Positions 151 through 871 of a stretch of DNA of 9,540 bases are shown one piece after another. The position numbers and the translations under genes are program-made. The notes under the pieces are model-generated. The model did not search any database, was not told where the DNA came from, and saw only the letters and a program-made list of their open reading frames with translations. The first letter of the stretch is position 1. Every line of letters begins with the position of its first letter. The stretch is from a virus (lineage: Duplodnaviria > Heunggongvirae > Uroviricota > Caudoviricetes): the IMG/VR virus record IMGVR_UViG_2671180651_000017. One strand, 5' to 3'.

Positions 151-222
151 CTTTAACCGTTATCATTTTCCGGCCATCCGTTATGAAGCTGGTGGATGTT
201 CCCCGATATGGGTATCCCCACC

Positions 223-305
223 TACCTGGCTTTTTTTCCGGTTAAATGTTAATCAGGCTGGTGGCCTTTACATACCCTTGATCACGGTAATGATGATTCA
301 GGTGC
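223..305. repeat. 83-bp repeat block, copy 1
   Basis: TACCTGGCTTTTTTTCCGGTTAAATGTTAATCAGG...GATGATTCAGGTGC; 81/83 identical to 760-842. Preceded by a degenerate copy of the CCCGATATGG palindrome at 201-229. Confidence 0.8.
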
Positions 306-514
306 GTACCTTTTCCCCAGTGGGGTAAAAGCTCCAACCGTAACGATGTTCGTTGTGGTTGCCTTGATGGTCTGCGTGGTCATTATGACCATTCAGAATT
401 TGAAGGGTGATGTTTCCGATCTCCTCAAATTGAGGATTGTGGAAGAATCAATGGGTTAGTCTTACTTTCCCAACATCCCCCAATGGGGGTTTTCGAAATA
501 ATCAATGGGTTAGG

Positions 515-538
515 CCATAGTGCAATTTTGCACTATGG
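515..538. repeat. Perfect 24-bp palindrome CCATAGTGCAATTTTGCACTATGG
   Basis: CCATAGTGCAA-TT-TTGCACTATGG, exact dyad symmetry. Flanked by AATCAAYGGGTTAG direct repeats at 446-459, 500-513 and 652-665. Confidence 0.75.
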
Positions 539-759
539 AACAATTCCAACCAGTTATCGGCATCAGGCCCACCAGCCAACGCAATTTTGCGCTTTGCTTT
601 AATCTCAGTAAGTTACCGCGCCAATTTCCGCAGTCTGTGGAAATTGGGAAGAATCAACGGGTTAGGCTGGTTTCCCCGATGTTCGCCGCTGGCGAATTTC
701 GAAAATATCAACCAGTTACCGCCGTATCCCGATATGGTGATCCCCATATCGAGATTGGA

Positions 760-842
760 TACCTGGCTTTTTTTCCGGTTAAACGTTAATCAGGCTGGTG
801 GGCTTTACATACCCTTGATCACGGTAATGATGATTCAGGTGC
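760..842. repeat. 83-bp repeat block, copy 2
   Basis: Two mismatches to 223-305. Flanked by palindrome copies at 728-753 and 846-871. Confidence 0.8.
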
Positions 843-845
843 TTC

Positions 846-871
846 CCCGATATGGTGATCCCCATATCGGG
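846..871. repeat. Perfect 26-bp palindrome CCCGATATGG-TGATCC-CCATATCGGG (10-bp arms); imperfect copies at 728-753 and 201-229
   Basis: Arms are exact reverse complements. Lies 17 bp beyond the stop codon (888) of the capsid-like gene. Confidence 0.8.

What the first reader, a model, noticed from the sequence alone, without database searches (positions are those of the whole stretch)
200..871. Repeat-dense non-coding left end: duplicated 83-bp block, triplicated 26-bp palindrome, perfect 24-bp palindrome, AATCAAYGGGTTAG triplet
About 670 bp between the capsid-like gene and the left boundary has no convincing ORF but is highly structured. An 83-bp block occurs twice (223-305, 760-842; 2 mismatches), each preceded by a CCCGATATGG-N6-CCATATCGGG palindrome, with a third perfect copy at 846-871. 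A perfect 24-bp palindrome sits at 515-538, and AATCAAYGGGTTAG occurs three times. The three ORF-track entries here end in near-identical peptides only because they read through the repeats. Possible roles: satellite cos/pac or helper-terminase recognition region, binding array for a host or helper protein, structured RNA, or scar of tandem integrations. The motif TTTTTTCCGGTTAAA in the block resembles a stretch I recall near lambda cos (TTTTCCGGTTTAAGG), but this is weak, memory-based evidence.
Basis: seen in the sequence. Interest (0 to 1): 0.6.

Follow-up and report, generated by a model that had tools for sequence, protein, structure and literature searches.

The report
Satellite array copying helper-phage regulator sites
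The non-coding left end of this E. coli phage satellite (a PICI) is a tandem array of short palindrome-plus-IHF-site modules that match a site hidden inside helper-phage regulator (roi/Rha) genes, which suggests, but does not prove, that the satellite binds helper regulators and the host protein IHF.

Summary
The window is a complete 9.5-kb PICI satellite inserted between clpS and cspD. The repeats are real and belong to the island: the reconstructed empty site is contiguous in 5057 of 5426 E. coli genomes.

The region is not a cos or pac site. It contains two conserved 83-bp blocks, each with a Chi site. It contains two copies, plus a half copy, of a 26-bp palindrome. Between the blocks lie eight tandem 39-68-bp units, all in one orientation. 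Each unit is a variable dyad-symmetric element followed by an A/T tract and, in four units, an exact IHF consensus (WATCAANNNNTTR).

The same module sits at the same place in PICIs with five different packaging modules.

The main new result is that four of the eight window units, and further units in related islands, match a ~50-bp segment at codons ~40-57 of roi/Rha-family genes of lambdoid and Stx phages. Different units match different alleles (35-45 of 50 positions). The palindrome also occurs inside phage KilA-N genes.

My best reading, which is inferred, is a DNA-level docking or decoy array for IHF and helper Rha-family proteins. No binding or function was shown here.

The parts
188..195 (+). 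Chi octamer GCTGGTGG in a short conserved segment (TTATGAAGCTGGTGGATGTT), also present in the related islands L005 and L337
202..220 (.). Half copy (left arm only) of the CCCGATATGG..CCATATCGGG palindrome
223..305 (+). Conserved block, copy 1. It holds the T-run hairpin GGCTTTTTTTCCGG (228-241), the invariant core TTTTTCCGGTTAA..TTAATCAGGCTGGTGG with Chi at 257-264, and a weak promoter-like TTTACA-16-AATGAT (267-294) that points into the array.
306..344 (+). Unit 0: hairpin CCCCAGTGGGG (315-325) plus a degenerate tail AAAAGCTCCAACCGTAACG. This is the conserved first unit after the block in most related islands, and its stem covaries (CCACCAATGGTGG and similar).
345..412 (+). Degenerate unit with hairpin GGTCATTATGACC (378-390). 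It overlaps the start of a probably spurious 37-codon ORF (346-459).
413..459 (+). Unit 1: dyad CCTCAAATTGAGG (423-435) plus IHF consensus AATCAATGGGTTA (446-458). It matches the JLK-2012/Lahn2/Stx1a-phage roi segment at 45 of 50 positions.
460..513 (+). Unit 2: dyad CCCCCAATGGGGG (477-489) plus IHF consensus (500-512). It matches the roi segments of VT2-Sakai and Stx2_14744 at 39 of 50 positions each.
514..559 (+). Unit 3: palindrome CCATAGTGCAA-TT-TTGCACTATGG (515-538) plus a degenerate tail ATTCCAACCAGTTA (543-556). No phage counterpart was found.
560..618 (+). Unit 4: an inverted Chi (569-576 on the - strand), dyad CGCAATTTTGCG (580-591) and a degenerate tail AATCTCAGTAAGTTA (601-615). No phage counterpart was found.
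619..665 (+). Unit 5: 13-bp-arm dyad CCAATTTCCGCAG-T-CTGTGGAAATTGG (621-647) plus IHF consensus (652-664). It matches the roi-like 'DNA-binding protein' gene of Stx1 phages (86.5% over 37 nt; 35 of 50 in register).
666..722 (+). Unit 6: dyad TTCGCCGCTGGCGAA (682-696) plus IHF consensus TATCAACCAGTTA (706-718). This is the commonest unit across PICIs (19 occurrences). In other islands it abuts the stop codon of a 93-aa ORF. It matches the roi-like gene of Stx2_112808 at 37 of 50 positions.
728..753 (.). 26-bp palindrome copy with 9 of 10 arm positions and a GATC in the centre. The same 22-bp core (CGATATGGnnATCnCCATATCG) occurs inside KilA-N-domain genes of E. coli temperate phages.
760..842 (+). 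Conserved block, copy 2 (2 mismatches to copy 1), with Chi at 794-801
846..871 (.). 26-bp palindrome with perfect 10-bp arms and a 6-nt centre containing GATC, 17 nt from the stop codon of the capsid-like gene (888)

Best explanation
Window 188-871 is the conserved non-coding end module of enterobacterial PICI satellites. It lies between the attachment site and the last packaging gene.

Its core (306-722) is a tandem, co-oriented array of composite DNA sites. Each unit is a dyad-symmetric element (5 inner and 3 outer symmetric base pairs around a 3-nt centre) followed, 10 bp later, by an IHF binding site. The units are copies of the element inside the N-terminal Rha domain coding region of helper-phage roi genes. 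In HK022, as I recall the paper, the Roi protein and IHF bind side by side there. Different units correspond to different roi alleles.

I propose that the array works on double-stranded DNA as a multivalent docking or decoy platform. Host IHF bends each unit. Early-expressed Rha/Roi-type proteins of an induced or infecting lambdoid helper, and perhaps KilA-N proteins at the 26-bp palindromes, bind their cognate dyads. This would tie the satellite to, or let it interfere with, the helper's IHF-dependent Roi circuit. The Chi-bearing blocks on either side probably protect the satellite's linear replication or packaging intermediates from RecBCD and drive the rapid shuffling of units.

Shown here: the anatomy, the homology, the covariation, the conservation across PICI types, and island ownership of the repeats.
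Inferred: IHF binding, Roi binding, and any effect on the satellite or the helper.
For: - Exact IHF consensus: 4 matches, all on the + strand within 273 bp, against 0.57 expected.
- Twenty-eight PICI units and 9 phage roi segments align without gaps in one 50-nt register. Eleven of 14 dyad pairs show double changes. The covariation score is 0.300 against 0.112 in shuffles (0 of 500 reach it), and the slid controls are lower.
- A blastn of 17 distinct units against 50,697 phage records hit 129 records. In every listed row whose record carries annotation at the match, the hit lies in a roi, DNA-binding protein, antirepressor or KilA gene, and different units hit different alleles. In each case checked the hit starts 89-133 nt after the annotated start codon.
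- The genes are Phage_pRha plus ANT/KilAC.
- In the phage genes the encoded peptide varies (HPQIEDCGR, NPPMVVFEK, LPQIEVSER, FPQTVEIEN and others), yet the dyad and the ATCAAYNNNTTA core persist.
- HK022 roi, the experimentally studied gene, has CTGCATTGCAG followed by AATCAATGATTTA. This is the only IHF-consensus match in its 5-kb P-Q interval.
- In HK620 the dyad occurs once in 38 kb, inside roi.
- PICI loci contain only the roughly 18-codon element and never the rest of a Rha or KilA-N gene.
- There is no strand bias in wobble pairs (30 G-T against 48 A-C), and in the 32 units that fall in the common register the centre is a fixed 3 nt. Both fit a duplex DNA site better than an RNA hairpin.
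- The same module sits at the same place in PICIs with five different packaging modules.
- Rha-family genes are known to be tied to IHF (PMC4936722, citing Mozola & Friedman 1985 and Henthorn & Friedman 1995).
- From my memory only, since the paper is not held: Clerget & Boccard 1996 showed that Roi binds within its own gene next to an IHF site and that IHF stabilises that binding.
Against: - No binding data exist for any unit, and the key Roi/IHF paper could not be read.
- Two of the eight window units have clearly palindromic dyads but only degenerate tails and no phage counterpart. The two leading units, and the blocks, also have no phage match.
- Identities to phage alleles are 70-90%, so the transfers are not recent.
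- Phage lambda, which has no roi gene (my knowledge), induces and mobilises the model PICI EcCICFT073 (PMC6092414). Roi therefore cannot be the general inducer.
- Dyad symmetry kept by compensatory change is equally expected for a hairpin in RNA or single-stranded DNA.
- A test for co-residence of cognate roi alleles and units was uninformative: 1 of 5 genomes.
- The benefit to the satellite is not defined.
Confidence: 0.42

Rival explanations
1. IHF-only architectural or insulator element. The array binds IHF, with no helper protein involved, and forms a compact bent nucleoprotein. Together with the hairpins this stops or stabilises transcripts at the end of the satellite's operon and shields the att site, int and the flanking host genes. 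The similarity to roi reflects common descent from an IHF-dependent attenuator inside roi.
For: - The IHF consensus is the best conserved part of the units.
- The array begins right after the last gene of the operon, and unit 6 abuts the stop codon of the 93-aa ORF in other islands.
- Several hairpins are followed by TTTTCG on the + strand.
- IHF is reported to regulate rha-family genes (PMC4936722).
Against: - The terminator scan found 0 sites.
- The short T-runs are on the + strand, antisense to the operon, so they cannot end its transcripts.
- A pure IHF array does not need dyads that track individual roi alleles, or several different dyads per array.
Confidence: 0.2
2. RNA-level function. 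Either the block promoter drives + strand RNAs that carry roi-like hairpins, or read-through of the satellite operon produces RNA antisense to helper roi mRNAs and modulates Roi expression.
For: - A promoter-like TTTACA-16-AATGAT lies in both blocks, and a TGnTATGAT in the alternative block variant; both point into the array.
- Up to 37 nt of perfect identity with roi alleles would allow pairing, because the operon strand is antisense to roi.
- The predicted structure is strong.
Against: - No Rfam family matches.
- Wobble pairs show no strand asymmetry.
- 3-nt loops are poor for kissing interactions.
- The promoter matches are weak: 3 found against 2.1 expected.
- In PICI units the N4 spacer columns of the IHF core carry less information (0.57-1.32 bits) than the consensus columns. 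This comparison is weak, because most consensus columns were fixed by the anchoring pattern, but such a contrast would not be expected if pairing with roi were the selected trait.
Confidence: 0.13
3. Recombination cassettes. Short homology patches flanked by Chi promote exchange between satellites, or between the satellite and helper roi genes (gene conversion or cointegrate formation). The array is kept because it fuels module shuffling.
For: - Chi sites in one orientation bracket the array.
- Unit content differs sharply between otherwise near-identical islands, for example the window against L004.
- Population variants include a copy that aligns in several pieces over a stretch about 118 bp shorter, and others that are much shorter.
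- Units share conserved flanks around a variable core, as silent cassettes do.
Against: - Identity to phage alleles is only 70-90%, with at most about 37 nt of perfect match.
- This does not explain why the IHF consensus and the dyad symmetry are preserved.
- The island as a whole is Chi-rich on both strands, so the flanking Chi sites are not special to the array.
Confidence: 0.1
4. One reading: a cos or pac site, or another recognition region for the satellite or helper terminase.
For: - The region lies next to the packaging genes.
- IHF sites are part of lambda cosB (PMC9026076) and, from my knowledge, of P1 pac.
Against: - There is no cosN in 1-900.
- In cos-type relatives cosN lies about 356 nt away; in the one inspected in detail (L010) a 93-aa ORF lies between it and the array.
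- The module is shared by islands with Terminase_2 TerS, P27-type TerS plus TerL plus HNH, and two cosN sites.
- A better pac candidate, GTAACTTT-type repeats, lies inside terS at 2230-2509.
- The heterogeneous dyads cannot all be read by one TerS.
Confidence: 0.05
5. Non-functional debris: decayed fragments of roi-like genes or leftovers of past insertions that hitch-hike at the island end.
For: - Two units are degenerate.
- Array length varies between strains.
Against: - Only the same roughly 18-codon segment is ever present, always in tandem and co-oriented.
- Compensatory changes keep the dyads.
- The module is conserved across diverse PICIs, with matches in about 20% of complete E. coli genomes.
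Confidence: 0.08

Closest known systems
Roi/IHF site inside the roi gene of phage HK022 (Clerget & Boccard 1996, recalled from memory) and the Rha phenotype of phi80/P22 (Mozola & Friedman 1985; Henthorn & Friedman 1995, as cited in PMC4936722)
   Same: Direct sequence homology. The layout is the same: a dyad, 10 bp, then WATCAANNNNTTR. The register is the same over 50 nt.
   Different: In the satellite the element is non-coding, tandemly repeated 2-8 times, multi-allelic, and not accompanied by any Rha-family gene.
Lambda cosB (R sites plus IHF site I1) and the cos1 site of PICI EcCICFT073 (PMC6739421, PMC9026076)
   Same: A satellite cis-element that mimics or replaces a helper DNA site. It has an IHF site next to protein-binding repeats and lies near the packaging genes.
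   Different: There is no cosN. In cos-type PICIs the array lies about 356 nt from cosN, and the dyads are heterogeneous.
Helper-responsive sites of satellite P4 (P2 Cox boxes, Ogr/delta-dependent promoters; my knowledge, and PMC6092414 discussion)
   Same: The satellite carries arrays of binding sites for helper regulators.
   Different: No regulated promoter has been identified here. The sites copy an intragenic helper element rather than a promoter operator.
BIME-1/RIP elements of E. coli (REP palindromes flanking an IHF site) and Neisseria Correia elements (my knowledge)
   Same: Palindromic units combined with an IHF site, repeated and non-coding.
   Different: The sequences are unrelated. 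These units are absent from the empty chromosomal site, found in PICIs and inside phage roi genes, and all co-oriented.
Centromere-like arrays (F sopC 43-bp repeats each with an inverted repeat; P1 parS with a central IHF site; my knowledge)
   Same: A tandem array of roughly 45-55-bp units, each holding a dyad; IHF-assisted wrapping.
   Different: The units here carry different dyads. No partition genes are present, and PICIs are reported to have no plasmid state (PMC6092414).
Chi sites protecting rolling-circle or linear DNA from RecBCD (my knowledge)
   Same: Exact GCTGGTGG octamers lie in the invariant core of the blocks.
   Different: The orientation logic could not be settled, because the cut site for packaging is unknown in this island and the cos-type relatives have two inverted cosN sites.

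Membership tests
Lambda-type cos site | 12-nt cosN GGGCGGCGACCT (or a close variant) at the cut site | tested here: not met
   No match with up to 3 mismatches in 1-900. The best match in the window lies inside the primase gene.
Lambda-type cos site | cosB with repeated R sites for one TerS, placed between cosN and the terS or rpp gene | tested here: not met
   The dyads differ from one another. In cos-type PICIs cosN lies about 356 nt away from the array.
pac site | The recognition sequence is specific to the element's own TerS and usually lies in or next to terS | tested here: not met
   The module is shared by islands with unrelated terminase genes. A repeat candidate lies inside terS instead. 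The cut site was not mapped.
IHF binding site | Core consensus WATCAANNNNTTR | tested here: met
   Four exact matches at 446, 500, 652 and 706 against 0.57 expected.
IHF binding site | A/T-rich tract 5' of the core | tested here: met
   A conserved CGAAA(N)(W) or GGAAG tract lies directly upstream.
IHF binding site | IHF binds and bends the DNA | not testable with these tools
   Needs EMSA, footprinting or ChIP.
Roi-type autogenous site (HK022 roi) | Sequence homology to the intragenic roi element (dyad plus IHF core in the same register) | tested here: met
   Identity is 35-45 of 50 positions for four window units.
Roi-type autogenous site (HK022 roi) | Bound by the cognate Roi protein, with binding stabilised by IHF | not testable with these tools
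   Known to me only from memory of Clerget & Boccard 1996. The paper is not held.
Intrinsic terminators | G+C-rich stem followed by a T-run | tested here: not met
   0 sites in 1-1100 on either strand, against 1.2 expected.
Known RNA families (Rfam 15, which includes the EHEC sRNAs Esr41, AgvB and AsxR) | Covariance-model match | tested here: not met
   No hit in 1-900 at E <= 1.
CRISPR array | Near-identical 28-37-nt repeats alternating with unique spacers, with cas genes nearby | tested here: not met
   The conserved part is about 20 nt, the variable part is itself palindromic, and there are no cas genes.
Integron attC sites | Complementary R'' (RYYYAAC) and R' (GTTRRRY) ends | tested here: not met
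   GTTAGGC is present, but no inverse core precedes the units (reading of the output).
Host intergenic repeats (REP/BIME) | Present at the chromosomal site independently of the island | tested here: not met
   The empty site is contiguous and lacks the repeats in 5057 of 5426 genomes.
Chi site | Exact 5'-GCTGGTGG-3' | tested here: met
   188, 257 and 794 on the + strand and 569 on the - strand. The whole window holds 9 against 0.25 expected.

The most novel reading that the evidence does not exclude
PICI satellites keep a fast-evolving, multi-allelic library of operator mimics copied from inside the DNA-binding-domain coding regions of helper-phage Rha/Roi and KilA-N regulator genes. With host IHF, this library captures or senses those early helper proteins. 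That would be a previously unrecognised satellite-helper interface, and it could explain the old IHF-dependent Rha/Roi growth phenotype. A corollary is that roi genes encode their variable post-HTH stretch (by position, probably the wing of the winged helix) on the very palindrome the protein binds, so a single ~50-bp cassette could swap protein specificity and target site together.
Probability: 0.3. Interest if true: 0.85.

Novelty: new variant of a known kind. Interest (0 to 1): 0.68.

Why it matters
- Sequences matching this region (window 150-900) occur in about 20% of complete E. coli genomes (1106 of 5426). The 30 or so related copies inspected lie at the ends of islands with very different packaging strategies. 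I found no description of the module in the PICI papers I searched.
- If the units bind IHF and helper Rha/Roi proteins, this gives a concrete, testable handle on how Gram-negative satellites couple to or interfere with lambdoid and Stx helper phages.
- It would also give a function to the roi/rha genes, whose IHF link has been unexplained since the 1980s-90s.
- The arrays could serve as markers of which helper families a satellite has met.
- The unusual Chi density points to how satellites that appear to lack RecBCD inhibitors (none was recognised among the proteins scanned here) survive as linear intermediates.

Tried and rejected
- Lambda cos resemblance: no cosN. The TTTTCCGG motif is part of the PICI-specific block and has no phage match.
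- Known sRNAs: no Rfam hit. The recent Pas-sRNA paper concerns lambdoid prophage loci, not this region.
- Small hydrophobic ORF 346-459, considered as a type I toxin: its C-terminus is read-through of units, and it is absent from L004, L005 and L010. I rejected it as a gene.
- Integron attC and CRISPR readings: rejected on anatomy.
- The island's own proteins as Rha or KilA-N homologues: none found.
- Identifying the 93-aa ORF or its neighbours as Rpp: no PDB match and only PHROGs of unknown function, so the packaging direction and the Chi orientation argument stay open.
- Genome-contig scan with a 16-mer: almost all hits were chance matches in unrelated phyla. The scan was wasted, and no taxonomic breadth was obtained.
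- Clerget & Boccard 1996 could not be read.
- Co-residence of cognate roi alleles and units: 1 of 5 genomes, uninformative.
- Strand inference from G-T against A-C mismatches: no bias.
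Full report
**Context**

The window is a complete satellite of the PICI type. All its genes are on the - strand:
- integrase (8133-9356)
- AlpA (7047-7271)
- D5-type primase (3678-5426)
- a Terminase_2 small subunit (1974-2579)
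- a truncated HK97-type capsid homologue (888-1811)

In E. coli 2014C-3061 the island lies between clpS and yljB/cspD. The same 11-nt core, ATAACTATCAT, closes both ends of the window. A query made of left flank, one core and right flank is contiguous in 5057 of 5426 complete E. coli genomes.

**Observation check**

The 83-bp block (223-305 and 760-842, 2 mismatches) and the three AATCAAYGGGTTAG copies are as described.

The palindrome is present as two real copies: 846-871 with perfect 10-bp arms, and 728-753 with 9 of 10 arm positions. The copy at 202-220 is only a half copy. The element at 515-538 has 11-bp arms around a TT centre.

No ORF is credible, and RefSeq annotates none. The region folds far better than shuffles (z = -7.6).

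**Anatomy**

Reading the region next to related loci shows that 306-722 is a tandem, co-oriented array of eight units of 39-68 nt. Each unit has:
- a short conserved 5' flank (TTYCCCGAYNT)
- a dyad-symmetric element whose sequence differs from unit to unit (CCTCAAATTGAGG, CCCCCAATGGGGG, CCATAGTGCAA..TTGCACTATGG, CGCAATTTTGCG, CCAATTTCCGCAG..CTGTGGAAATTGG, TTCGCCGCTGGCGAA)
- an A/T tract (TTTCGAAA or GGAAG)
- a tail

In four units the tail is an exact match to the IHF consensus WATCAANNNNTTR. There are 4 matches in the window, all on the + strand within 446-718, against 0.57 expected.

The array is bracketed by the two blocks. Their invariant core is TTTTTCCGGTTAA-N3-TTAATCAGGCTGGTGG, which includes a Chi octamer. 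A third Chi lies at 188.

**Conservation**

Sequences matching window 150-900 occur in 1106 of 5426 E. coli genomes. The module was found, in one fixed orientation with the array next to the last packaging gene, in islands with five different packaging modules:
- a capsid-forming PICI of the EcCIEDL933 type next to phoQ
- islands with a lambda-type capsid, a decoration protein and TerS
- an island with a protease-capsid fusion at the same clpS site
- islands with two lambda-like cosN sites
- this island, with TerS and a capsid homologue

Where the block is present, the order is att, (palindrome), block, units, last gene. In ten cos-type loci, cosN lies about 356 nt beyond the last unit; in L010 a 93-aa ORF of unknown function lies between them.

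Because the module is shared by islands with unrelated packaging genes and is separate from cosN where cosN exists, it is not the cos or pac site. No cosN is present here. A better pac candidate, GTAACTTT-type repeats, lies inside terS.

Unit content differs between otherwise nearly identical islands (window against L004). Shorter variants also exist in the population, so the array turns over quickly.

**Link to helper phages**

The only phage matches to 150-900 fell inside roi genes. A query of 17 distinct PICI units then hit 129 phage records. In every listed row whose record carries annotation at the match, the hit lies in a gene called roi, DNA-binding protein (Roi), antirepressor or KilA. 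Different units hit different alleles.

In each of the nine genes inspected, the match starts 89-133 nt after the annotated start codon. This is codons ~40-57 of a Phage_pRha domain that is followed by an ANT/KilAC domain. That stretch comes just after the helix-turn-helix. By position I take it to be the wing of the winged helix; Pfam winged-helix profiles match residues 5-55 of one allele, but no structure was predicted.

The peptide there is the most variable part of an otherwise well conserved domain. The DNA nevertheless keeps a 13-nt dyad, a 10-nt spacer and ATCAAYNNNTTAGG.

Window units match their nearest alleles as follows:

| Window unit | Nearest phage allele | Identity in the 50-nt register |
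|---|---|---|
| Unit 1 | JLK-2012 roi | 45/50 |
| Unit 2 | VT2-Sakai roi | 39/50 |
| Unit 6 | Stx2_112808 | 37/50 |
| Unit 5 | Stx1_14040 | 35/50 |

The two leading degenerate units, units 3 and 4, and the blocks have no phage match.

HK022 roi itself has CTGCATTGCAG plus AATCAATGATTTA, the only IHF-consensus hit in its P-Q interval. In HK620 the dyad occurs once in the genome, inside roi.

PICI loci contain only this roughly 18-codon element and never the rest of a Rha gene. The units are therefore isolated cis-elements and not decayed genes.

**Covariation**

Twenty-eight PICI units and 9 phage segments align without gaps. For the 14-pair dyad, 67.8% of cells pair against 56.5% in shuffles. 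Eleven pairs show changes on both sides. The covariation score is 0.300 against 0.112 (0 of 500 shuffles reach it), and the slid controls give 0.05-0.15. The strongest pairs are five inner and three outer positions.

Mismatches show no strand bias (30 G-T against 48 A-C), and in the 32 units that fall in the common register the centre is a fixed 3 nt. I read this as weak support for a duplex-DNA dyad rather than an RNA hairpin.

In a sample of 51 close roi relatives, synonymous diversity is lowest in codons 21-57.

**The 26-bp palindrome**

Its 22-bp core has at least 120 matches in IMG/VR. One large class lies inside KilA-N-domain genes of E. coli temperate phages, where it encodes DMGIPIS within the domain. 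Only 10 of 114 loci have the PICI context. This is a second element of the region that mirrors a palindrome inside a phage DNA-binding-protein gene.

**Mechanism**

Established background: Rha-family genes inhibit phage growth in hosts lacking IHF, and IHF regulates them (PMC4936722, citing the original work). As I recall but could not re-read, HK022 Roi binds within its own gene next to an IHF site, and IHF stabilises that binding.

My inference is that the satellite array is a multivalent DNA platform that binds IHF at each unit and cognate helper Rha/Roi proteins at the dyads. It would act as a decoy or as a docking site. The Chi blocks would protect linear intermediates and promote unit shuffling.

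Roi cannot be the universal PICI inducer. Lambda, which lacks roi, induces alpA of EcCICFT073, and that inducer is still unidentified (PMC6092414).

Rivals that remain open are an IHF-only insulator, an RNA-level function and recombination cassettes. The cos/pac and debris readings are unlikely.

**Limits**

- There is no binding, transcript or phenotype evidence.
- Taxonomic breadth is unknown, because the genome-contig scan was wasted.
- The packaging direction is unknown, so the orientation logic for Chi is unresolved.
- A co-residence test was uninformative.

Noticed in passing
window 188, 257, 794, 4639, 5788 (+ strand); 569, 1631, 6914, 8465 (- strand): The island is very rich in Chi sites: 9 GCTGGTGG in 9.5 kb on both strands, against 0.25 expected from shuffles. 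Other PICI loci have a similar density, whereas phage HK620 has 1 in 38 kb. This may be a satellite-wide adaptation to RecBCD.
   Followed up: partly
window 1-150 and 9373-9540: attP architecture. The core ATAACTATCAT is at both ends. The arm-type repeat ATTAACTACACC occurs twice at 83-106 and again at about 9380-9403 (second copy ATTGACTACACC). CGAACAA occurs three times at 113-139, and ACGAACA-like repeats lie at about 9429-9520.
   Followed up: partly
window 2230-2267 and 2484-2509: GTAACTTT-type direct repeats lie inside the terS gene. They are a more plausible pac site for this island than the left-end region.
   Followed up: no
window 1801-1962 (-) and 888-1811 (-): The 53-aa ORF between terS and the capsid-like gene matches a terminase-small-subunit PHROG (profile positions 89-125), so it may be a second terS fragment. 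The capsid-like protein matches only the C-terminal part of HK97-type capsid profiles, so it may be a capsid-size remodelling protein.
   Followed up: no
window 3494-3670: Three GGGGTAGAGGGGTTTTA-like repeats, spaced 73 and 87 nt apart, lie just downstream of the primase gene. They are probably replication-origin iterons.
   Followed up: no
window 346-459 (+): A 37-codon ORF has a very hydrophobic start (MFVVVALMVCVVIMTIQNLKGDVSDLLKLRIVEESMG). Its first 16 codons are identical in L002 and L003, but its end is read-through of array units and it is absent from other islands. It is probably not a gene.
   Followed up: partly
L005 8038-9627: A related PICI is inserted inside the portal gene of a lambdoid prophage. 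This is the helper-embedded PICI configuration already described by Tommasini et al. 2023 (PMC10111431).
   Followed up: yes
L010 1615-1626 (+) and 2139-2150 (-); nine further loci: Cos-type PICIs carry two inverted lambda-like cosN sites 510-870 bp apart. The flanking ORFs (93, 114 and 137 aa) have no match to solved structures, so I could not place Rpp in these loci.
   Followed up: partly
L247 and many other IMG/VR loci; phages PhiR5_2 and vB_EcoS-666R9: The palindrome CGATATGGGGATTCCCATATCG is embedded in KilA-N-domain genes, where it encodes DMGIPIS. A second class is intergenic, next to a strong terminator in phage-sized contigs that have no match in the annotated phage collection.
   Followed up: partly
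L159-L238 (roi N-domains), codons 21-57: Synonymous diversity in roi is two- to four-fold lower across codons 21-57 than in the rest of the N-domain. This hints at DNA-level constraint that extends upstream of the dyad/IHF element.
   Followed up: partly
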